A stretch of DNA of 64,000 nt, taken from IMG/VR virus record IMGVR_UViG_3300009082_000959. The stretch is one strand, 5' to 3'. Positions 2,264 through 60,758 of this stretch are shown one piece after another. Each line of letters opens with the position of its first letter. The stretch's first letter is position 1. The DNA is from a virus. Taxonomy: Duplodnaviria > Caudoviricetes. Made by a program: the position numbers and the translations under genes. The notes beneath the pieces are model-generated. The model was not told where the DNA came from. It was given only the letters and a program-made list of their open reading frames with translations, and made no database searches.

Positions 2264-2599
2264 ATGAGAAAATCAAAAGAGGAAGCCGTAAATAATTTCA
2301 AGGAAAAGTGGGGCCTTACTGGAAAGCACTTTTACAGATTCGGTGACAACTTGTTTATTTTGTCAGTAAAAAAAGTCACAATTGAAAACCCAAGTTATGA
2401 AAACACATATGTAAGTTCTTCAATGATGACAGAACTAAACTCATTGAACTCGATATTAAAAATGATTAAAAAGCCTAAAACTAAATTTATAATAGATAGT
2501 CACAAAATGAATAGTGGTTTCTACAAGTGTGAAGTTTTTGATACATATGAAAAACTAAAAACTTATTTACTAATAAATAAATTAGCGGGATTAAAATGA
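2264..2599 (+). CDS. hypothetical protein (C-terminal LLINKLAGLK)
   Basis: 111 aa ORF in the + operon. Confidence 0.6.
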   Translation: MRKSKEEAVNNFKEKWGLTGKHFYRFGDNLFILSVKKVTIENPSYENTYVSSSMMTELNSLNSILKMIKKPKTKFIIDSHKMNSGFYKCEVFDTYEKLKTYLLINKLAGLK

Positions 2600-3536: not shown

Positions 3537-3968
3537 ATGACACTATTACACGATGCAATGACTGCTTACTTATCTGGCTTGACTACCACAAAGAATGAAA
3601 AAGAAATTTGGTGGCAGGATGGATTTGGCGATAAAATTACCGTAGAGTTGGTGGATGCTGATTTAGAAACATATATTGTGAGAAGATATTCAGAACACAA
3701 CTATACACTACTTTATGAGGTAAATTTTAAGAAAGACCAGCGCCACGGACCAAGTAAATCATATTATGGAGATGGCAATCTGTGGATAGAGAATAATTAT
3801 CTTCGAGATAAACGACACGGACTATGCAAAGAATATTCAAAAAACGGAAGAGTGTTCGCAGAATATAATTATCACAAAGATAAACTGCACGGTTTATGCA
3901 AATATTATAACTCGCGTAGCGGAAAAATTCGCGAAGAAAAATATTGTAAAGGTAAATTATGTCAATAG
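3537..3968 (+). CDS. MORN_2 repeat protein with conserved leader
   Basis: MTLLHDAMTAYLSGLTT leader plus three MORN-type repeats. Confidence 0.85.
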   Translation: MTLLHDAMTAYLSGLTTTKNEKEIWWQDGFGDKITVELVDADLETYIVRRYSEHNYTLLYEVNFKKDQRHGPSKSYYGDGNLWIENNYLRDKRHGLCKEYSKNGRVFAEYNYHKDKLHGLCKYYNSRSGKIREEKYCKGKLCQ

Positions 3969-4627
3969 AAATTGAGTATGAAAAATTACGATCCGCTTTG
4001 AGATATTGGCTTTACGGCAAAGGATATCATAAAGCGGTTAAAGCAATGGAGTATGCCGCCAAGTATCATAAGGGATTGCGTAAGGATGGCGTTACTCCTG
4101 AATTTTATCATCAACTTTGTATTGCTGGATATGTTAGAACCCTTCACTTAATTTATTCAGAAGAGACTATGGCCACTGCTTTTCTTCACGACCTCATAGA
4201 AGACTATGATATATCTGCGTCCGAGTTAGAGCGTCAATTTGGAAAAGAAATAGCGTTCCCCGTATCATTGTTAAGTAAGCGTAGGGATGGTTATACAATA
4301 GAAAACACCCCATACTACCTTAATATTTGCAATGATCCTATTGCATCAGTTGTGAAGGGCGCCGATCGTATTCATAATTTCCAAACCATGATTGGCGTAT
4401 TTGACATCACAAAACAAAAAGAGTATATAGAGGACTGCAAGGTTGGTTTGTTGCCGATGCTAAAAAAGGCCAGACGAAAATTTCCAGAGCAAGAACCAGC
4501 TTACGAAAACATTAAACACGCATTATTAAGTCAAATAGATTTAATAGAATGTTTGCATAAATATTTTGATACAGCAAGTAATCCGAAGAATGATTTAATA
4601 ACCGCGCCGGAGAAAAGAGTTCCGTGA
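3959..4627 (+). CDS. HD-domain (p)ppGpp hydrolase-like protein (SpoT/Mesh1-type small alarmone hydrolase)
   Basis: A.KYH.G.RKDG.TP...H, AFLHDLIED, VKGADRIHN motifs. Confidence 0.8.
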   Translation: MSIEIEYEKLRSALRYWLYGKGYHKAVKAMEYAAKYHKGLRKDGVTPEFYHQLCIAGYVRTLHLIYSEETMATAFLHDLIEDYDISASELERQFGKEIAFPVSLLSKRRDGYTIENTPYYLNICNDPIASVVKGADRIHNFQTMIGVFDITKQKEYIEDCKVGLLPMLKKARRKFPEQEPAYENIKHALLSQIDLIECLHKYFDTASNPKNDLITAPEKRVP

Positions 4628-5586: not shown

Positions 5587-6621
5587 ATGGTAGATAAAGA
5601 AAAGTTAGATTCAATTTTTAAAAATATCAGTAGTGAATTGCCCGTTGGAATTCTAATACATCCCTCGCCGGACCCAGATTGTTTGGGCGCCGCGGCCGGA
5701 TTTACGATATTTCTACAACATGCTTATGGAATTTCCAGCAAAATATATCACCTTGGAGAGATTAGTCATCCACAAAATAAATCCTTAAAAAATGTTCTTC
5801 ACATAAACCTCGAAGAAGGAAAAAGTTTTGACCACACAAAAGTTTCTGCAACCGTTTTGCTTGACACTGACCTGACAAATTCTGGATTTAAAAATGAAAA
5901 GTTTATTAAATCAACTGTTAGAATCGATCATCATGATACTGATAGGGACGAAGAGTCAGAGTTGGAGGATGTAAGGCAAACTGGCTCAACCTGCGCTATT
6001 ATTTGGGAATATCTTAAAGAGTTTGATATCCCAATGGAAGAGTATCCTGATGTTGCTACTGCTTTGGTTTTAGGGATTAAGACGGATACTGTTGATTTTA
6101 CCAGTAACGCTACGACAGAATTAGATATGCAAGCGTTTAGATTGCTTTTACCGTTTGTTGCCAAAGACAAATTAGCAAAGGTGACTCAATTTCCTTTGCC
6201 CAAAATTGTATTTGAGGCAGAGACCAGAGCGTATAAAAACAAAGAAACTCGTAATGCTACACTCACTGCTTTTGCTGGCGAACTAACCCAGCTTAATAGA
6301 GATGTCATTCCTACAATTGCAGATAGGTTTGCAAGAATGGATGGTATTAATACTGCGGTAATTCTTGGTATCATAGGAAACAATATAGTTGCCAGCGTAA
6401 GAAGTAGTGACCAAAGAGTTGATGTTGCTGACTTTTGTGTGAAAGTTTTTGGAAAGGCACATGCTGGCGGCCGTGAAGGTGCCGGCGGAGCATCTGTTCC
6501 TTTGGGTTTAGCGTTTGAAATTCTTTCTGGAAAAGAGGTTAGAGATGTAATAATAAAGGAAATTATTTCTGCTTTCTCTTTGAAAATATTTACTACACTT
6601 GGAGAGTATGAGGCAAGCTAA
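5587..6621 (+). CDS. DHH/DHHA1 phosphoesterase (NrnA / cyclic-dinucleotide PDE-like)
   Basis: HPSPDPDCLGAA, LLDT, RIDHH, C-terminal GGREGAGG. Confidence 0.85.
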   Translation: MVDKEKLDSIFKNISSELPVGILIHPSPDPDCLGAAAGFTIFLQHAYGISSKIYHLGEISHPQNKSLKNVLHINLEEGKSFDHTKVSATVLLDTDLTNSGFKNEKFIKSTVRIDHHDTDRDEESELEDVRQTGSTCAIIWEYLKEFDIPMEEYPDVATALVLGIKTDTVDFTSNATTELDMQAFRLLLPFVAKDKLAKVTQFPLPKIVFEAETRAYKNKETRNATLTAFAGELTQLNRDVIPTIADRFARMDGINTAVILGIIGNNIVASVRSSDQRVDVADFCVKVFGKAHAGGREGAGGASVPLGLAFEILSGKEVRDVIIKEIISAFSLKIFTTLGEYEAS

Positions 6622-19458: not shown

Positions 19459-19725
19459 ATGGCAGAAGAAAAGAAAGAACTAAGATGCGTGTGGAATATG
19501 GGAACAGATTGCGGTGGAACAGTTGAAGAACTTGAAATGTTCAATAAGTCTATCAAGATACCTGTGTGCGAGAACCACAAGTCAGAGCACCAAATCTTGG
19601 TAATACTACACAAAAACAAATATGATATTGAAGAAGTTTTGAAGTGGACCGCAGACAAACGAAAGGAAGAAATGTTAATTTTGAAATTGTCAGGGTTACT
19701 TACAGATGAGGACACTGAATTGTGA
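19459..19725 (+). CDS. hypothetical Cys/His protein, paralog of 621-932
   Basis: Shared CGG...P.C..H..EH pattern. Confidence 0.65.
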   Translation: MAEEKKELRCVWNMGTDCGGTVEELEMFNKSIKIPVCENHKSEHQILVILHKNKYDIEEVLKWTADKRKEEMLILKLSGLLTDEDTEL

Positions 19726-33033: not shown

Positions 33034-33186
33034 ATGAATAAATTAGGCGGCAAAGAATTTGTATTAATTAATAGAAGGAAAGTGGATCGAAATATAAATG
33101 GAGCCTTGGATATTTTGTTCAGGGCAGCTGGAAATACATCCTATTTTAATGGTGATGTTCAAAATTGCACTGTTAATAAAAGTTAG
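33034..33186 (+). CDS. hypothetical protein (50 aa)
   Basis: SD AAGGAG; MNKLGGKEFVL... Confidence 0.5.
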   Translation: MNKLGGKEFVLINRRKVDRNINGALDILFRAAGNTSYFNGDVQNCTVNKS

Positions 33187-33208
33187 CAGAAAGGTATCGG
33201 CACGCAAC

Positions 33209-33625
33209 ATGAACCTCGGAAAAGTTATAAAAATATATGAAATCATTAAAAATAGATTACCTAAAACTTATCCTCACCCAAAACTCGCCTTCTTTGAGGA
33301 TGAGGATTGCATGTTAAGCAACACTAATTTAAAAAAAATAGAAAACGAAAATGTATATGCGGTATTTTCCCCAACCACAGAAACGATATGCTTGCCACTT
33401 AAAATGACCTTTGAGTATTATGGGAAAAATGGAAAGTATATAAACACAGTTAATTTAAATAAATTCACTGATGTAGAAATTGCTCATACTTTATTGCATG
33501 AGTGTTGTCATATGTATGCTGGCGAAAAGTATGGATATTTTTCAGAAAAATATCATGATGAAAAATATTGTGATACATTTGCGAGTAGGTGGGTAAAGGT
33601 TTTGGTTAAGGAAAAATTACTATGA
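33209..33625 (+). CDS. HExxH zinc metallopeptidase-like (ImmA/IrrE-like)
   Basis: HTLLHECCH...EKYCDTFA. Confidence 0.65.
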   Translation: MNLGKVIKIYEIIKNRLPKTYPHPKLAFFEDEDCMLSNTNLKKIENENVYAVFSPTTETICLPLKMTFEYYGKNGKYINTVNLNKFTDVEIAHTLLHECCHMYAGEKYGYFSEKYHDEKYCDTFASRWVKVLVKEKLL

Positions 33626-33643
33626 CGCTTTTACATCGATGAC
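33622..33643 (+). pseudogene. remnant of a MORN-family leader
   Basis: GGAAAAATTACTATGACGCTTTTACATCGATGACA vs family ...ATGACACTTTTGCATGATGCGATGACA; 4-nt deletion then truncation. Confidence 0.5.
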
Positions 33644-33661: not shown

Positions 33662-33696
33662 GTCGCAACACCCAAAAATGTTGCGTGGATTGAAAC
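33662..33696 (+). CRISPR. solitary type I-C-like CRISPR repeat unit (no array)
   Basis: GTCGCAACACCCAAAAATGTTGCGTGGATTGAAAC; GCAACA/TGTTGC stem; GTCGC...GCGTGGATTGAAAC ends typical of I-C repeats. Confidence 0.75.
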
Positions 33697-33934: not shown

Positions 33935-33968
33935 GGTTGCATATGCCTGAAAGCATATGCAGCCTTTT
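33935..33968 (+). terminator. 12-bp hairpin plus T4 (terminator or IS left-end hairpin)
   Basis: GGTTGCATATGC-CTGAAA-GCATATGCAGCC-TTTT. Confidence 0.55.
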
Positions 33969-34031
33969 AGGTATCGAATATATTTATGTTTTCCATTGAC
34001 AATTGTTGACAAACGGTATATTATTATAATA

Positions 34032-35198
34032 ATGTTCAAATCCACGAAAACTACTTTACGGTTTGCTAATACTGGTAAACGAAATCACCTTGACAGTTTC
34101 CTCGACGAGTATCGTCGTGTGCTTGCGGTTTTCGTGGATTTGCTTTGGTCGCAAGAAAAGGTCCCAGTGTTGTTACCAGCTTCCGTCACGAAACCAATTC
34201 AAACTACTTCGTGGCTTTCCGCGAGAATACTACAAGCCGCAGGAAAACAGGCCAGCGGAATAGTTCGCGGAACTCGTAAAAAGCAACAACAACGAAAGTG
34301 GGTTTACGACAAACTCCAAACCGAAGGCAAATTTAAACAAGCACGAAAACTAAAACGAATTATAGACAAAGTCATTATAACCAAACCAAATATAAATCAA
34401 GTAGAACCAGAATTAGATTCGCGTTTTGTAAAACAGGACTGGACCAACTCAACTACTTTTGATGGGTTCGTGACTTTGTCTTCGTTGGGTAATCATTTAA
34501 AAATTGTGCTACCAGTAAAGCGTAATAAACATTTCAATAAATTGCTCACCGCTGGAACACTTAAAACCGGTGTCAGGATTTCACGTAATGCTTTGACTTT
34601 TTGTTTTGAATTACCTGACGTCAAACCGCGTTCCACAGGAACTACACTGGGAATAGACTTGGGAGTAAAAAATACTATCTCTACTTCCCAAGGATTTTCC
34701 AGTAAGCCCGACAACCACGGACATACACTGGATTCCATCAATACACGATTGACACGGAAAACAAAAGGTTCTAAAAACTTTAAACAGACACAAACACTAC
34801 GAACTAATTACATAAACTGGTCTGTGAATCAACTTAATTTAGACCAAGTTAAGACCGTAAAACTCGAAAACTTAAAACATTTTCGTAAAGGCGTAAAAAC
34901 TTCACGCAAACTAACCCACTTCACCTACACAGAGATTCAAAGTAAAGTAGTAAATTGTTGTAATTTACTTGGTGTCCAAGTAGAATACGTAAATCCTACT
35001 TATACTTCTCAAAGGTGTAGTTGTTGTGGTTGGGTTCGTAGTAGCAATAGGAAAGGCAAACAGTTTAAGTGCAAAGCCTGCGGCTTCGCTGTGGATGCGG
35101 ATTTAAATGCTGCCTTAAATATTGCCACTAACCTTCGGCCTATTGGCCGTGAGGAACGATTGCTCCACAAAAACCGCAAGGGTTTTTACTGGAAGTAA
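34032..35198 (+). CDS. tnpB: TnpB RNA-guided nuclease
   Basis: RuvC-I GIDLG, RuvC-II LENL, zinc finger CSCCG/CKACG, RuvC-III DADLNAALNI; TTGACA-17-TATTAT promoter at 33996-34024. Confidence 0.9.
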   Translation: MFKSTKTTLRFANTGKRNHLDSFLDEYRRVLAVFVDLLWSQEKVPVLLPASVTKPIQTTSWLSARILQAAGKQASGIVRGTRKKQQQRKWVYDKLQTEGKFKQARKLKRIIDKVIITKPNINQVEPELDSRFVKQDWTNSTTFDGFVTLSSLGNHLKIVLPVKRNKHFNKLLTAGTLKTGVRISRNALTFCFELPDVKPRSTGTTLGIDLGVKNTISTSQGFSSKPDNHGHTLDSINTRLTRKTKGSKNFKQTQTLRTNYINWSVNQLNLDQVKTVKLENLKHFRKGVKTSRKLTHFTYTEIQSKVVNCCNLLGVQVEYVNPTYTSQRCSCCGWVRSSNRKGKQFKCKACGFAVDADLNAALNIATNLRPIGREERLLHKNRKGFYWK

Positions 35199-53311: not shown

Positions 53312-53830
53312 ATGGTAAAAATTCAACCAAAATTTAAAGTCGGAGACACAGTGTTCGCCACTAAAATTGATGAAGAAGTTAGTGTTATTGCCGTTAATGT
53401 TAATGAAGAAAACATAAATTATACTCTATCAAGACAATATGTAATGCCCGAAATTTACTTAGAAAAATCAAGAGAGAGCGCTTCATATAAAAACAGCATC
53501 GACTGTCTGATAGAGAAAAATAATATATGTTTTAATAATATAGAACAGGCGGAAAACGAAATTAAACGTCAAGAAGAAATATTAGAAAAATGTTCAGCAA
53601 AGTTAAACAATAAACGAGAATCTGTAAAACCCAGAAATATAATTGATGATTGGAGGGTAATCAGTTATATTAATGATTTATATCTCGAAATCTCCCAAGC
53701 AAAACATTATATTAAAAGAGGCAAAGCTCGCATTAAAAGTTTAAAAAATAATTTAAAAACAAACAATGAAAAAATAAAAGAACTAAAAAAAGAAATGTTG
53801 GTGTTAGAATTGTCAGGAATAATGAAATAA
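53312..53830 (+). CDS. hypothetical protein (SH3-like N-terminus, coiled coil; ends MLVLELSGIMK)
   Basis: PKFKVGDTV start motif. Confidence 0.55.
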   Translation: MVKIQPKFKVGDTVFATKIDEEVSVIAVNVNEENINYTLSRQYVMPEIYLEKSRESASYKNSIDCLIEKNNICFNNIEQAENEIKRQEEILEKCSAKLNNKRESVKPRNIIDDWRVISYINDLYLEISQAKHYIKRGKARIKSLKNNLKTNNEKIKELKKEMLVLELSGIMK

Positions 53831-53867
53831 AAGAATATCTGATTACGAAATTGTCTGGGATTGAAAA

Positions 53868-54071
53868 ATGATGAATAAAAGTGATACTGACCAAATTTAT
53901 GTTTCTGTGTTGAAATTTAATAGGTCAATTTGCCACGAAGGCGAACTGATTAAATTATTACTTCCAAATACCCCAGTGATTGTAAAGTTTATAAAAATAA
54001 CCGGCGGCCAAACTGCGTGGCTTCTTGATCGTCACGATAGAGACATATACAACTTTTACGGAGAACAATAA
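53868..54071 (+). CDS. mini-gene family member (dispersed)
   Basis: TDQIYVSVLKFNRSI motif. Confidence 0.55.
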   Translation: MMNKSDTDQIYVSVLKFNRSICHEGELIKLLLPNTPVIVKFIKITGGQTAWLLDRHDRDIYNFYGEQ

Positions 54072-54651: not shown

Positions 54652-54903
54652 ATGAAAAACGAAGAAATGGAAACAATGTATGTGGAGTGCATGTGTGAAG
54701 ACCAATCACACACTTTAAGGTTTTCACAAATAGGTGAAGATGTTTGTGTATCAATGCACCTAACTATGTTTGGATTTTGCGTCCGACTTTGGAATGCTCT
54801 GAAATATATCTTTGGCCATCGATCGAAGTTTGGTGATTTCGAGGAAACCATTTTGGAAAGAAAAGATATAAAAAAGATAGTTGGGTTTCTGAAAAATGTC
54901 TGA
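54652..54903 (+). CDS. hypothetical phage protein
   Basis: ECMC...H.LRF...RLWNALKYIFG..SKFGDF.E. Confidence 0.6.
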   Translation: MKNEEMETMYVECMCEDQSHTLRFSQIGEDVCVSMHLTMFGFCVRLWNALKYIFGHRSKFGDFEETILERKDIKKIVGFLKNV

Positions 54904-57900
54904 ATATATGCAAGATTTTTATAAATCTGTTTTTAAATACGGGACGAAAATTATAAAAAAATACGAATTATGTAGTAATAATTTGTCCATTGATTTAAAA
55001 AACAAGGGTGGGTATTCCGGGATTAGATATTATTTTTATTGCAGGATAAATAAATATGATATTGACTGACGAAGAAAGAATATTGTATATTAAAAGAATA
55101 TATATTTATCTTTTAAAAAAAAAGGAGTGATAGCAAAAAGCCATACACGTGATGCTTTTTATCATAGCGTAGTTACGATTGGTGTTCCGGGAGACATATT
55201 TTGTGCAGACAATTATTTATCTGAATGTAGGTGATTTGTGCAATACGGAATGATGAATGTTTATATTATGTATTTCAAACGCAAACATAGTATTTATGCC
55301 GGCGGTAAAATTAAAGAATTTAATAATATATATTTGCGTGTAGATTTTATAATTAATGGGTATGTTAGGGGCTACACTATACTGCAAAAATAATGTTGGA
55401 GTAAGTTATGCGCGAATCTATGAAAATGGTTTATGTTAAATTTCTAAAACACAAACAAATAATATACAAATATGAAATTTATCAATATTTTGGCAAAGAA
55501 TTTGTAGCGATAGAGTTTAATGGTTTTGGCGTTTGGCCTTACCGAGTTTCAATAGAGGTAATATAGGTGGCAGACTATGCAGCAACATATGAAAATAGTT
55601 TATATTAGATTTATGAAAAAACAACAACAAATATGTGCATATAAAATTAGACTCAATTATCTGACGGTAGATTTTAATATATTCGAAAGTATTTGGCATT
55701 ATTATATCAATTTTTAAGAAAGTTAAATCATGCAATACGAAATGATGCAAATATATACTAAAATTTTAAAACATGGTCGTAAAATTGATTCTTATAGTAT
55801 GTTGTTTGATTCTACTTGTTTAGAGGTTAATATTTTTCCTTCCACTTATTTTATATAATATCGGAGTAGTTTATGTGTGGTCTTATGAGGATAGCGTATA
55901 TATGTGTTTTAAAAAAGAATTGTGATATTTGTATATCCGATCGCATTCCAACTACATCTGGGTATGATAAAATTAAATCAAAACCACCATCGAACGACAT
56001 CTGCTTTTATATTTCGGATAAATTTTAATCATGCAATATGAAATGATTGACCTTTATATTGAAATCCTAAAATATGGTTCCAAAATTAATAAATATTATA
56101 TGGTTGGTAATGATTATTTGGGTTTAGATATTTATATTTTCCATTTTTATATTAAACAGAAAGAACAACAATGACTGATGCGATGAAGAAATTTTATATT
56201 TATGCTTTAAAATATGGATACGGGATTTACATAAATGAGTGGCGGTCAATTAGCCTCGGCGGCGATAGAATTTGTATTGAGCTTTATCCTCCCACGAAAA
56301 ATTCTTAATTTTGTTTTAAGGTAAAATAATGGACTGTATGATGCAAGTATTTTATATTAGTATATTAAAACAAAAATATATACCAGAAATAACAGAAAAG
56401 TTAATAACTTCTGATGGCCGTCATAGGGTTTTTATTAGATTAAAAGGCGTAGATTATTCTGAATTCTTTTTTACAAGCGAGTTTTGATTATGCAACAATC
56501 TATGGTAAATTTATATATTGATGTATTAAAATATAATTACCACATTGTGGGAGCATTTTCAGCAGAATATTATAATTTATATTTCACATTGCGTGAAGAC
56601 TACACACATTATTTTTTTATAGAGAAAACGTGAACACTCACTCAATATACATTGACTTTTTCAAAAACAAATTCCCAATTGTTTGGTATCACGTTTTTGA
56701 GAGCGGCGGAACTTGGTGGGTTGAAATCGAAACAGAATGGAATAAATATTTTATACGACAAGGCAAACAATGAGTATTCCAAATAGTATGCAGTCAATAT
56801 ATATTCAAATTTTAAAATATAAATGGTCAATAACAAAGTCTTATCCAGTAGTGAGATTTTGTGGCATTGATAGTGTGGCCATAGAAATAAATTGCCTGCC
56901 TTATATACTGGTGCAAAGGGCGCAAAATGACAGAATGTGGCATTAATTCTCTATATATTAGTTTATTTAAAAACAAACACACAATAAAAGATTATCGAAT
57001 ATTTAACCTTAATGGTTTTTCATTTATTATCATCTACACAAATGAAAACTTCAACAATAAATATTATGTTCTTTCAGGAGTCTAAATGTATAATTATATT
57101 GCACCAAATGGTTTTTGCAAAAATGCAATTTTTGGCATATATATTCAAATTTTCAAAAACAACTGGTCCGGCAGAGTGGTTGGAAGAGTAAATGAAAAAT
57201 TATGCACAAGTATAACAATAGAATTAACAGACCCAAAAAATAAATATAATTGTGAAACAATTTATAAAGAATTATTTGCCGGAGATTTACGGACACGATA
57301 ACAAAATGACAGAAAATATAAGACAAATTTATAGGCAAGTTTTTAGGAACAAATGCACCTTGTGGCAAAAAACAGACACTGAAATAATAGTGATGCATAA
57401 CACTTTACAATTATATAGACTTTATGTTTGTGAGGAGCCGGTGCCAGGAATTTATTTTTTCTAATGAGGTAAAAATGGATTGGAAAATAGCAAACATTTA
57501 TCGCGGTGTTTTTAAGTTTGGCGAAAAAATCGAAGTTATAAAAGCAAACAAAAACTTTTTAATGGCCAGCACGACAGATTGTGATGGTTATAAGACTTTA
57601 TATTATTTATATAGTCTTGAAAGCAAATAGGTAGAGGTATGACAATGCTACCATATCGAACAATTTATCGCAGAGTTTTAAAATATAACTATACTATGAC
57701 ACAAAGAAATATAAATAATTATGGGATACATAGTGAAATTTCTTTTTGGTTGGGGCAAACACTAGCAAGCTCATTTATTGTTTATGGTAATGGAGTTTAT
57801 TCTTGGAGAACTTAATGGCAATTCCAATAGCGTGTGAAATGACATATATAAAAGTTTTAAAATACGGCTACACGATGGAACAAACGAAAAAATGCTCACC

Positions 57901-60758
57901 GAAGCCAGAAACAGCGTAGAAAAAGCAAAGAGAAATTTTTTGATTATGAAATTAGCGGGGTTAAGTCGCAACACCTAAAATGTTGCGTGGATTGAAACAA
58001 ACAGAATTCTATGGCCCTCACTTTATTTGGACTGGAAACCGATGCAAGTAGAAATGAAATATTTATACATAAACATACTTAAATATAACAACAAAATATA
58101 TAAAATGAAGCTCTCCAATTACTGGCTAATATTACAAGCAAACGATGAAGCACAAAATTATCATAAAGTTTATATTATATACGACAAGGAAATAAATGAC
58201 TAATGGCATGAAAGATTTATATATCTATGTATTTAAAGAAAATTGCAAAATATATAAACCATTTTATTGGGGTGACTACCTTGTGATTAATTGTAAATCA
58301 TCATTTAGTGATCCTGTCTTTGATTGCTGGATTAAAACATGCAAGTAGATATGCAAAATGTTTATATAGATTTCTTTAAGCATAATTACACAATAAAACA
58401 AACATCACATTATAGTAAGTGGTGGAAACTTGTTATTAGAAATAGTAAGGGAACTTATTATTATAACTATTATTATCGAGTGAAACATAAATGACAGAAG
58501 AAATGCAAAGTTTATATACAAAGATAATTAAGTATAATTACAAAATATATGAGGTAGGATATTTGGACGCTTGGTGTATATTATATGTTAAAAGTAAAAG
58601 TGCTAATGGGTTTTACACACAAAATTGTTTTATTGAATGGAAACATGAATGACTACTGGTATGAAAGACATTTATAGATATTTCTATAAGCATAATTATA
58701 CAATAGAAAAAATTCCAACCCATTTAGGCAATACATTAGAGCTTCGCATAAAAGATAAGAACGATTTATCTTGCTCTTATTTTTTCTTTTATGGTGGAAG
58801 ATAAATGATTAAAGATATGCAAAATGTTTATATAAATTTCTTTAAGTATAATCACACAATAAAACAATATGGTAATTGGTGGCAACTTGTTATTGGAAAT
58901 AGTAGTGGAGGCTATTATTACAACTATTGTTGTCGGGTGGAAAAGTAAATGACTAATGGCATGAAAGACATTTATATCTATGTATTTAAGTTTGGTTTCA
59001 AAATATATCAAAATCACACTTACCGCGATTTTTGCGAGTTTTATGTGGTTGGCCCTCTTGAAACTTTGCGTCTTTGTGTAATTGATTAGTGGAGAAATAT
59101 TATGATACCGAGTGCAATGAAATTTGTATATATAAAATCATTTAAGGGTGGTGATAAAATTCATGCATATCACAATCATCACGAACTTGGTTTTCTTGAA
59201 ATTTGTTTTAAGCATTGGTTTGTTGGCAGTATAATAAGGCGTTTTATTCACTATGGAAAACGAAAATGCAAGTAGCAATGAAAGACATTTATATAAGTGT
59301 ATTTAAATACAATCATAAAATATATGATTATTATCCCTATGATGATTTATGCGTAATCTATATTAAAGATAAATACAACATTTTTACGGGGAGATATAAT
59401 GTCAGACATGCAATATGATATGAAAAAACTTTATATATCTATTCTTAAGCATAAAGCGCCCATACGCTCATGCACTAGACATACCAGTGGATTTTATGTG
59501 ATTAAGGCATATGTTAAAACAATTTATGTAGAAAAATTAAAGAGATACTATATTTTTAGATTACCGACGAGCAAAAAATGAAAGAGCACATAAGAGAAAT
59601 TTATATAAGTTTGCTCAAACGTAACTACACAGTATATGCATGTTTTAGGTCACCTGATGATTACGAATATATAATCGATCTTCGAGTAAGCTATTATTTT
59701 GCTTTCGATAGACATTTTCTTCGGCCACGGGAGTTGGAATGCAAAGAGATATGATAAAATTGTATGTTGATTTTTTTAAGTATAATGTTGCAATATATAA
59801 GATGGAAACGCCAGAATATTTGGAAGATACAGTTATGGTGTTTTGTGTGTCAAAATCTAATCTTTATTATTTTAATTATTGCACTATTAGAAAGTAATAT
59901 ATGATGCCACTTAATATAAAAAGCATTTATTTGAAATATTTTAAATTTAACCTTCCGATATTATCATTTTCTGAATCTGGATATGATGAGGGTGGATACA
60001 TAATTGATATTAAATCAACTCTTCCTACATATTTGGAGAGATATATTCTACTGCCAACATTATCTCGCCACACACTTGTTCGATTATAATATTTGGTGCC
60101 AAATGTCTTATGAAATAGCAACAATATATACCGAATTATTTAAGCACAAGGGAAGAATAATTGGTTTTAATCACTTAAACACTTACTATGACATAACAAT
60201 AAGTTTGTATGGTTCCTATGACGCGCATCACTTATATATTACTTAAAGGGAAAAATATGCCAGATAAAATTAGACATCTTTATATGTGTATGTTTGTTTG
60301 GGGCTGGACTATAAATAAAATAATTGAAAGAAATAACCATTATAGTATAGAAATTTTTTCTGATTCAATGAAGTATAAATATAATTATAGATTGGAAAAA
60401 TAATGATATTGCCATATAAAATTAATAATATTTATGTATTATTGTTTAAGCGTAATTGGATTGTGAATGAAGTAATTGAGAGAGATGAATGTTATGATAT
60501 TTATATATCTGCTTCACCTCGCATAATCAGCGCATGGAATTTATATAGATTGGACAAACAATGACTTGGGCAATGAACAGAATTTATTTTAGGTTGCTAA
60601 AACATAAAAATACAGTTGTTTCAGTAGATAAGCAAAATGAAATAAATGCATATGTTGTAAAATTACGCGACCAAACATCCCAGTGTGTTTATACTTACGT
60701 TCTTTATGACGATAATTCACCAGCAATAGTATTTAATAAAGGATCAAATAATGATTGA
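54896..60758 (+). other. mini-gene array C: ~36 head-to-tail ORFs (mostly 42-71 aa)
   Basis: Starts 54896, 55056, 55238, 55408, 55577, 55730, 55873, 56031, 56171, 56329, 56490, 56630, 56770, 56927, 57086, 57306, 57475, 57639, 57815, 58042, 58196, 58339, 58491, 58649, 58805, 58949, 59102, 59266, 59408, 59578, 59739, 59901, 60103, 60257, 60403, 60561. Confidence 0.88.
57965..57998 (+). CRISPR. second solitary type I-C-like CRISPR repeat unit
   Basis: GTCGCAACACCTAAAATGTTGCGTGGATTGAAAC; differs from the 33662 copy only in the loop. Confidence 0.75.

What the first reader, a model, noticed from the sequence alone, without database searches (positions are those of the whole stretch)
57815..58041. 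Second solitary repeat embedded in the mini-gene array at a chimeric junction
Seen: array member 57815 starts normally (MTYIKVLKYGYT) then breaks into unrelated sequence and stops at 57919. Another frame (57874-57978) reads as an orphan C-terminus (...EKAKRNFLIMKLAGL), running into the repeat at 57965-57998. About 43 nt of unique sequence follows before the array resumes at 58042. Both repeat copies sit next to broken genes. Inference: the repeat travels as, or marks, an insertion or recombination scar. The downstream ~35 nt (AAACAGAATTCTATGGCCCTCACTTTATTTGGACTG) could serve as a spacer-like guide. Co-location with the mini-genes would fit an anti-defence island.
Basis: partly seen in the sequence, partly recalled or inferred. 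Interest (0 to 1): 0.6.

Follow-up and report, generated by a model that had tools for sequence, protein, structure and literature searches.

The report
Second solitary CRISPR repeat in phage
A giant uncultured phage carries a second stand-alone copy of a type I-C CRISPR repeat, wedged into a patchwork of gene fragments inside its mini-gene array. It is most likely another example of the known RNA decoys that phages use against bacterial CRISPR immunity, not a new kind of element.

Summary
At 57965-57998 lies a 34-nt unit with every feature of a type I-C CRISPR repeat: a 2-nt overhang, a 7-bp stem and an 11-nt tail that starts UGG. The only other copy in the window, 33662-33696, differs only in the loop. 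The same repeat form occurs in real metagenomic arrays beside cas3-cas5c-cas8c-cas7c.

Both copies are solitary and lie in the sense of transcription. None of the 40 window ORFs scanned matched a Cas family other than TnpB.

The surroundings are a mosaic:
- the 5' part of a mini-gene (57815-57886);
- out of frame, a copy of a recurrent C-terminal tail module (to 57964);
- the repeat;
- 43 nt that look like a mini-gene 3' tail rather than a spacer.

'Recombination scar' fits the local anatomy, but nothing shows that the repeat itself moves. The guide idea found no second repeat and no target. The 'anti-defence island' idea has no support.

Best reading: a second solitary repeat unit of the known Racr (RNA anti-CRISPR) class. 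Host and function are untested.

This scan had already reported both copies on this same DNA (e1-5378350). Its I-C label corrected my first guess, and I then tested it myself. No DNA of a relative covering this locus could be obtained.

The parts
57815..57919 (+). Truncated mini-gene member (34 aa). Family homology runs to about 57886, then unrelated sequence and a stop.
57887..57892 (+). A6 run where the member frame and the -1 frame meet. Reading through would give a 54-aa chimera. It is a weak slip site, more likely a frameshift or join point.
   Evidence: inference
57892..57978 (+). Orphan 28-codon ORF in the -1 frame. It encodes a copy of the recurrent C-terminal tail module LIxKL[AS]G[LI]. 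Its last 14 nt and its stop codon lie inside the repeat.
57965..57998 (+). Solitary type I-C CRISPR repeat, copy 2. GU 57965-66; stem arms 57967-73 and 57981-87; loop 57974-80; 11-nt handle 57988-98. The predicted Cas5c cut is after 57987.
57999..58041 (+). 43-nt stretch, probably the 3' tail of a disrupted mini-gene. ORF 57980-58051 is in the same frame as 57815. The stretch also holds the start context of the next member. No evidence that it is a spacer.
57879..57885 (+). Left copy of the 7-nt direct repeat AACAAAC. The right copy is at 57996-58002, exactly 117 nt away. Possible microhomology at the join; a chance match is not excluded.
58042..58203 (+). Next intact mini-gene member; the array resumes here.
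33662..33696 (+). Solitary type I-C CRISPR repeat, copy 1 (loop one base longer). It is intergenic, 19 nt after a MORN-family gene-start remnant (33622-33642).

Best explanation
The 34-nt unit at 57965-57998 is a solitary repeat unit (SRU) derived from, or mimicking, a type I-C CRISPR repeat. It is one of two in this part of a huge uncultured phage.

Inferred mechanism:
1. The unit is transcribed as part of the + strand mini-gene transcript.
2. In a host with a type I-C system, its hairpin and UGG-led tail are recognised by Cas5c, which cuts after 57987.
3. Cas5c, and probably Cas7/Cas8c, are drawn onto a useless phage RNA instead of host crRNAs. This is the Racr (RNA anti-CRISPR) decoy mechanism.

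The surrounding DNA is a mosaic: a mini-gene 5' piece, a foreign C-terminal tail fragment, the SRU, and a mini-gene 3' tail. Illegitimate recombination in a highly paralogous, fast-turnover array probably made it. The mosaic records how the SRU came to lie here. It is not a functional part of the SRU.

Shown: repeat identity, solitariness, orientation and the mosaic anatomy. Inferred: transcription, Cas5c processing, decoy function and the host.
For: - The architecture is that of canonical I-C repeats: 2-nt overhang, 7-bp stem, 11-nt tail starting UGG. For those repeats Cas5c cuts at the 3' stem base and reads the UGG, while the loop and the 5' overhang are tolerant (PMC8524198).
- A pattern taken from the phage unit retrieves genuine arrays. 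One of them (L032) lies beside cas3, cas5c, cas8c and cas7c.
- The pattern also retrieves solitary copies. One contig among them (L026) is listed as an I-C SRU in the Racr paper's supplement.
- The two phage copies differ only in the loop. Both changes fall in 8 of 35 positions, p about 0.05 by my own count.
- The hairpin forms in the MFE and the centroid fold of the 161-nt context.
- No partial repeat lies within 120 nt.
- Both copies are sense to the + strand genes around them.
- None of the 40 window ORFs scanned (most of those of 200 aa or more) matched a Cas family apart from TnpB.
- Precedent: RacrIC1 lies 11 nt downstream of acrIC5, is co-transcribed with it and is active.
Against: - No host is known. 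No CRISPR array with this exact stem was found in 185,579 species genomes or in JGI metagenomes.
- None of the 153 spacers from the fetched arrays matches the window.
- There is no convincing promoter just upstream and no terminator. The classic SRU architecture has both, for example L037.
- The loops are 7-8 nt, against 5 nt in the model I-C repeats.
- Copy 2 overlaps the end of a small ORF. SRUFinder would mask that ORF if it were called with confidence.
- No expression or activity data exist.
Confidence: 0.6

Rival explanations
1. Inert relic. The two units are leftovers of past recombination with a host I-C array, or of a decayed phage mini-array. They have no present function, and the mosaic around copy 2 is simply a scar.
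For: - Copy 2 sits among gene fragments and overlaps a pseudo-ORF.
- It has no promoter or terminator of its own.
- No matching host array was found.
Against: - The two copies lie 24 kb apart with unrelated flanks, yet keep stem and handle intact and differ only in the loop.
- A decayed array would leave neighbouring partial repeats, and none is present.
Confidence: 0.15
2. Single-repeat guide (Cracr/crlRNA-like). After Cas5c cuts, the 11-nt handle plus the downstream 30-35 nt is loaded into host Cascade. It then directs Cascade to a host promoter, such as the cas promoter, or to a competitor.
For: - Cas5c stays at the 5' handle, so an upstream repeat alone could nucleate Cascade.
- Viral crlRNAs with a single repeat-like unit plus a spacer-like stretch are described for type V-A.
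Against: - The I-C Cracr elements described are two-spacer arrays, so they hold several repeats.
- There is no degenerate repeat or terminator here.
- The downstream flanks of the two copies share only 5 nt.
- There is no protospacer or TTC-plus-seed match in phages, plasmids, IMG/VR or the I-C loci fetched.
- The 43 nt look like a gene tail.
Confidence: 0.1
3. Cis-acting RNA element of the phage's own gene expression. The hairpin stabilises or punctuates the polycistronic mini-gene transcript, or makes expression downstream of 58042 depend on cleavage. It would work by a host nuclease or by none.
For: - It lies inside an operon-like array, 43 nt before the next start codon.
- It forms a stable local hairpin.
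Against: - A plain hairpin would not need an exact 11-nt I-C handle.
- The same unit also occurs in a quite different context at 33662.
- No other array junction carries such a hairpin.
Confidence: 0.1
4. Recombination or integration handle. The homology to host CRISPR repeats lets the phage, or pieces of it, recombine with host arrays, or diverts host Cas1-Cas2 integration.
For: - The Racr paper cites this as an earlier suggestion for SRUs.
- Both copies lie at rearranged sites.
Against: - 34 nt is short for homologous recombination.
- No duplicated repeat or inserted spacer is present.
- No integrase was seen near copy 2 among the neighbours scanned.
Confidence: 0.05

Closest known systems
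RacrIC1 and the type I-C solitary repeat units of Camara-Wilpert et al. 2023 (PMC10651486)
   Same: - It is a single I-C repeat on a virus, with no partner repeat and no cas genes nearby.
- It starts GTCGC and ends GCGTGGATTGAAAC, like the catalogued I-C SRUs.
- It can sit directly behind a small ORF and be co-transcribed with it, as RacrIC1 is behind acrIC5.
   Different: - It has no predicted promoter of its own.
- The stem is AT-richer and the loop is 7-8 nt.
- It overlaps the last 14 nt of a pseudo-ORF.
- There are two copies in one genome.
- The host and the activity are unknown.
- It would not reach SRUFinder's 90% identity rule against any array repeat I found.
Canonical type I-C CRISPR repeats as Cas5c substrates (B. 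halodurans, S. mutans, S. pyogenes, X. oryzae; PMC8524198)
   Same: - It has the 2-nt 5' overhang, the 7-bp stem and the 11-nt 3' overhang beginning UGG.
[quoted passage not shown]
   Different: - It is not arrayed.
- The loop is 7-8 nt instead of 5.
- Its total length is 34-35 nt, against 32 nt (2 + 7 + 5 + 7 + 11) for the model repeats as I add up the parts.
Viral crRNA-like regulatory RNAs (Cracr; bioRxiv 10.1101/2024.10.29.618823)
   Same: A phage-borne repeat-like unit followed by a non-repeat stretch, which could in principle load Cas effectors.
   Different: - The Cracr elements against type I-C are two-spacer arrays whose spacers match cas promoters.
- Here there is one repeat, no terminator and no identified target.
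Promoter-driven twin SRUs on metagenome contig Ga0315284_10033725
   Same: - It belongs to the same repeat sub-family (GTCGCAAC...GTTGCGTGGATTGAAAC).
- Two solitary copies lie on one element and differ by a 1-nt loop indel.
   Different: - Each L037 copy sits 5 nt behind an identical TATAAT-bearing leader of about 60 nt, and one is followed by a terminator-like hairpin.
- The phage copies have unrelated flanks.

Membership tests
Type I-C CRISPR repeat (Cas5c substrate) | 2-nt 5' overhang, 7-bp stem and 11-nt single-stranded 3' tail | tested here: met
   Folds and the model alignment. The architecture is as described in PMC8524198.
Type I-C CRISPR repeat (Cas5c substrate) | The tail begins UGG directly after the cut site and ends AUUGAAAC | tested here: met
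   57988-57998 and 33686-33696 read TGGATTGAAAC. UGG is the recognition trinucleotide named.
Type I-C CRISPR repeat (Cas5c substrate) | The same repeat form is found in arrays next to cas5c/cas8c/cas7c | tested here: met
   The L032 array (36-nt repeat, same first 8 and last 17 nt) lies beside cas3, cas5c, cas8c and cas7.
Type I-C CRISPR repeat (Cas5c substrate) | Cleaved by Cas5c | not testable with these tools
   Needs an RNA cleavage assay or small-RNA sequencing.
CRISPR array or mini-array | At least two repeats, full or partial, spaced by a spacer | tested here: not met
   No partial repeat above the shuffle level within 120 nt of either copy. Only two hits in 64 kb, 24 kb apart.
Solitary repeat unit / Racr | Matches a known CRISPR repeat type, is solitary, and is carried by a virus or plasmid | tested here: met
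   Phage identity of the window comes from GroEL, ligase, Dda helicase and HNH hits in PHROGs.
Solitary repeat unit / Racr | No cas genes associated | tested here: inconclusive
   No Cas family among the 40 window ORFs scanned, most of them 200 aa or longer. Only TnpB (33957-35198) matched. The rest of the 223-kb genome could not be read here.
Solitary repeat unit / Racr | Intergenic position, usually just downstream of a promoter | tested here: not met
   Copy 2 overlaps the end of ORF 57892-57978, and no promoter-like site lies just upstream. Copy 1 is intergenic. The bicistronic RacrIC1 shows that the promoter rule is not absolute.
Solitary repeat unit / Racr | The host carries the matching CRISPR-Cas subtype | not testable with these tools
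   The host is unknown. No array with this stem was found, and no spacer match.
Solitary repeat unit / Racr | Inhibits CRISPR interference when expressed | not testable with these tools
   Needs a plaque or plasmid-clearance assay in a type I-C host.
Cracr / crlRNA | A spacer-like stretch with a PAM-flanked partial match to a cas or defence promoter | tested here: inconclusive
   No match in the phages, plasmids or IMG/VR collections or in 105 kb of I-C loci. The host locus is unknown.

The most novel reading that the evidence does not exclude
A single type I repeat could be enough to make a working guide. Cas5c stays on the 5' handle, so the solitary I-C repeat plus the roughly 34 nt behind it might be loaded into host Cascade. 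That would make it a one-repeat viral crRNA-like RNA that silences a host cas or defence promoter. Alternatively, Cascade assembly on the phage mRNA could cover the start region of the next mini-gene at 58042, so that expression of the array would depend on whether the host has active CRISPR-Cas. Either would be a type I mechanism not described in the papers I read.
Probability: 0.08. Interest if true: 0.6.

Novelty: new member of a known kind. Interest (0 to 1): 0.3.

Why it matters
- It adds a huge freshwater phage, with two copies, to the list of carriers of type I-C repeat decoys.
- It shows such a unit embedded in an operon-like mini-gene array without a promoter of its own. This supports the idea that SRUs can act from within longer transcripts, and that ORF-masking pipelines can miss them.
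- It predicts that the unknown host has a type I-C system with an AT-rich repeat stem, which is a usable clue for host assignment.
- The mosaic around it is a small, readable example of how paralogous phage gene arrays are rearranged.
- None of this changes the current picture of RNA anti-CRISPRs.

Tried and rejected
- **First guess.** I first read the unit as a Cas6-type (I-B/III) repeat with an 8-nt handle. I dropped this once the 11-nt UGG tail, the GTCGC start and the cas5c-linked arrays pointed to I-C.
- **IS200/IS605 or TnpB end hairpin.** Rejected. Copy 2 has no TnpB nearby, and copy 1 lies about 260 nt upstream of the tnpB ORF (33957-35198). No similar hairpin turned up elsewhere in the window.
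- **Handle-like TGGACTGGAAAC at 58028-58039 as a degenerate second repeat.** Rejected. It would leave only a 7-nt spacer. Handle-like 11-mers are not enriched (24 found against 17 +/- 4 expected). The stretch aligns to a paralogous gene tail.
- **Programmed -1 frameshift at the A6 run.** Unlikely. It is not an X XXY YYZ heptamer, and the nearest hairpin is about 73 nt away.
- **Shared flanks or a mobile cassette.** The flanks of the two copies are no more alike than shuffles.
- **Host arrays.**
  - The 19-mer scan of species genomes gave 9 single chance hits.
  - The metagenome scan gave I-C arrays, but none with this stem.
  - Their 153 spacers do not hit the window.
- **Relatives of the locus.**
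  - Megablast against phages found nothing.
  - The nucleotidyltransferase, the helicase and the 226-aa protein gave no close relatives.
  - The 81 loci fetched hold neither the mini-gene motif nor I-C handles.
  - The mini-gene alignment was too variable for the search for related loci.
- **Mini-gene family outside this phage.** The family was found only on this phage's two assemblies, 223,498 and 289,349 nt.
- **Rfam.** No CRISPR-DR hit.
Full report
**1. What the window is**

The 64-kb window is AT-rich (about 33% G+C), and nearly all its long ORFs lie on the + strand. It encodes a phage-type GroEL, an ATP-dependent ligase, a Dda-like helicase, HNH/homing endonucleases and a TnpB. No close relative exists among 50,697 deposited phages. 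No whole genome is held for it. Earlier notes of this scan call it a 223-kb uncultivated freshwater-sediment phage. Exact protein look-ups show the same ORFs on contigs of 223,498 and 289,349 nt.

**2. The observation**

- ORF 57815-57919 encodes 34 aa. Its first two dozen residues carry the motif of the mini-gene family: M, a few residues, Y-I-x-x-L-K-Y (alignment A5).
- After about 57886 the ORF matches no other member. It lacks the two aromatic-rich strands that the others have.
- Intact-looking members of the run 54896-60758 have 42-71 aa. Most abut or overlap their neighbours, with gaps of about -20 to +20 nt. Here the gap to the next member (58042) is 122 nt, the widest between neighbouring ORFs in this run by my reading.
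- The -1 frame is open from 57838 to 57978, with an ATG at 57892. It ends in ...KLAGL, followed by four codons and a TAA that all lie inside the repeat.
- The repeat occupies 57965-57998, and 43 nt follow it.
- A near-identical unit is at 33662-33696.
- The 34-mer never recurs in 100 shuffles.

**3. What the repeat is**

My first guess was a Cas6-type repeat. A note from this scan (e1-5378350) called it type I-C, and I tested that.

- The unit reads: GU, a 7-nt arm, a loop of 7 nt (8 nt in copy 1), the complementary 7-nt arm, then an 11-nt tail TGGATTGAAAC.
- This is the architecture reported for the I-C repeats of B. halodurans, S. mutans, S. pyogenes and X. oryzae: a 2-nt overhang, a 7-nt stem and an 11-nt overhang.
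[quoted passage not shown] The loop and the 5' overhang are tolerant (PMC8524198).
- A pattern built from the phage unit (GTCGC, 8-16 nt, GTTGCGTGGATTGAAAC) found 21 metagenome loci.
  - Many are true arrays with spacers of roughly 33-40 nt.
  - One (L032) lies next to cas3, cas5c, cas8c and cas7.
  - Others are solitary. One of these contigs (L026) is listed as an I-C solitary repeat unit in the supplement of the Racr paper.
- A covariance model of 22 such repeats finds only the two known sites in the window.
- Neither copy has a partial repeat within 120 nt above the shuffle level, so they are truly solitary.
- Both read in the crRNA sense on the + strand, the strand of the surrounding genes.
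- The hairpin of copy 2 forms in both the MFE and the centroid fold of its 161-nt context.
- None of the 40 window ORFs scanned, most of them 200 aa or longer, matched a Cas family other than TnpB.

**4. The two copies compared**

Homology stops within about 5 nt of the repeat on either side. The flanks are no more alike than shuffles. The two differences inside the repeat, one substitution and one extra base, both lie in the loop. The chance of that is about 0.05 (28/595, my count). This is weak but consistent evidence that stem and handle are under constraint. A twin pair on metagenome contig L037 shows the same pattern, a 1-nt loop indel only.

**5. The junction**

- *The orphan frame is not random.* Its tail belongs to a short module, L-I-x-K-L-[A/S]-G-[L/I] preceded by a K/E-rich helix.
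  - The module occurs four times on the + strand of the window, at 2579, 19684, 53848 and 57949.
  - Each copy lies at or near the end of a reading frame, shortly before the next gene or, here, the repeat.
  - Shuffles give 0.9 matches for the 5-residue core alone. By my estimate the 7-position motif would be expected about 0.004 times.
  - The closest copy is the end of ORF 2264-2599, with 15 of 16 nt identical. Against the whole window this match is not significant on its own (E 0.5 for DNA, 0.08 for protein).
- *The 43 nt after the repeat.* They lie in the same reading frame as the 57815 piece, as ORF 57980-51 ends ...CK, stop. They align loosely (18 of 37 positions ungapped, by my count) with the 3' tail of the paralogue 58196-58348, which precedes the same ATGCAAGTAG start.
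- *A possible join point.* A 7-nt direct repeat, AACAAAC, stands at 57879 and at 57996, exactly 117 nt apart. Removing the block between the two copies would leave an in-frame 39-codon gene. That gene would still lack the family's middle strand, so a replacement is as likely as a clean insertion, and a 7-mer repeat can arise by chance.
- *Reading.* The site is a mosaic: a member 5' piece, a tail-module fragment, the SRU, and a member 3' tail. This is a recombination scar in a fast-turnover array.
- *Copy 1.* It sits 19 nt after a remnant of a MORN-family gene start, complete with its ribosome-site region and then broken by a 1-nt insertion.
Two cautions apply.
  - Other members of these arrays are also decayed, for example 37987 and 55056.
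  - A non-coding unit in a packed phage genome can only survive in such places.
  - With no shared flanks and no target-site duplication seen, nothing shows that the repeat is a mobile unit.

**6. The guide idea**

- The downstream stretches of both copies have only chance-level matches (E of 3 or more) in the phage and plasmid collections.
- The first 20 nt after copy 2 have no exact match in IMG/VR.
- No TTC-plus-seed match occurs in 105 kb of I-C loci or in the window itself.
- There is no downstream repeat remnant or terminator.
- The viral crRNA-like RNAs described against type I-C are two-spacer arrays. The single-repeat form is described for type V-A.
- The idea is not excluded, because the host locus is unknown. 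Nothing supports it.

**7. The anti-defence island idea**

- The 28 mini-gene members tested match no Pfam family. Two had marginal single hits (E about 0.007-0.009) to PHROG families of unknown function.
- The family was found only on this phage's own contigs.
- Neighbouring genes are a nucleotidyltransferase, a pyrimidine-dimer glycosylase and MORN-repeat proteins.
- Racr candidates do cluster with acr genes, but here there is no evidence either way.

**8. Mechanism and verdict**

- *Most likely mechanism (0.6).* The unit is a second solitary I-C repeat of the Racr class.
  - It is transcribed within the array transcript and cut by host Cas5c after 57987.
  - It then acts as a decoy that ties up Cas5c and Cascade subunits.
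- *Precedent.* RacrIC1 lies 11 nt behind acrIC5 on one transcript and is active.
- *Against.*
  - There is no known host and no array with this stem.
  - No spacer hits the window.
  - It has no promoter of its own, unlike the twin SRUs of L037.
- *Rivals.* Inert relic (0.15), single-repeat guide (0.10), cis-acting RNA element (0.10), recombination handle (0.05).
- *Novelty.* This is a new member of a known kind.
  - This scan has already reported the pair on this same DNA, and I confirm that class.
  - I add the anatomy of the junction and the negative tests of the guide idea.
  - No DNA of a relative covering this locus could be obtained.

Noticed in passing
window 2579-2593, 19684-19698, 53848-53862, 57949-57963: A recurrent C-terminal peptide module, a K/E-rich helix followed by L-I-x-K-L-[A/S]-G-[L/I]. 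It ends four otherwise unrelated reading frames, each shortly before the next gene (MORN gene, HNH gene, mini-gene) or the repeat. Far more frequent than chance; its meaning is unknown.
   Followed up: partly
window 53764-53868: The frame carrying the ...KLSGIEK tail has no start codon and is out of frame with ORF 53312-53830, which ends just upstream. This could be a frameshifted or recoded gene end.
   Followed up: no
L037 5345-5376 and 6309-6339 (- strand), contig Ga0315284_10033725: Two solitary I-C repeats about 960 bp apart. Each lies 5 nt behind an identical leader of about 60 nt with a perfect TATAAT. They differ by one loop base, and one is followed by a terminator-like hairpin. This is the textbook Racr architecture in the same repeat sub-family.
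   Followed up: partly
L018 1-10448 (JGI24703J35330_11748083): An array with a 31-nt I-C-style repeat (UGGAUUGAAAC tail) lies next to a type III-B Cmr module (cmr1, cas10/cmr2, cmr3) and a SAVED-domain protein. No I-C genes are present on the 10 kb held.
   Followed up: no
window 33201-33210: CACGCAACAT is the exact reverse complement of 10 nt of both solitary repeats. About 3 such 10-mer matches are expected in 64 kb by my estimate, so it may be chance.
   Followed up: partly
window 33622-33642: A truncated MORN-family gene start (6 codons, then a stop) overlaps the stop codon of the SprT-like ORF 33098-33625. It keeps the family's ribosome-site region.
   Followed up: yes
window 3959-4627 and 5587-6621: A RelA/SpoT-like domain protein and a DHH-family phosphoesterase (NrnA/pyrophosphatase-like) are encoded near the MORN-gene clusters. 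They may bear on nucleotide signalling.
   Followed up: no
L013 857-887 / L035 8751-8781: Another solitary I-C repeat (31 nt) on an IMG/VR viral contig and on a metagenome contig. It has the same flanks in both and is followed by an A/T-rich run.
   Followed up: no
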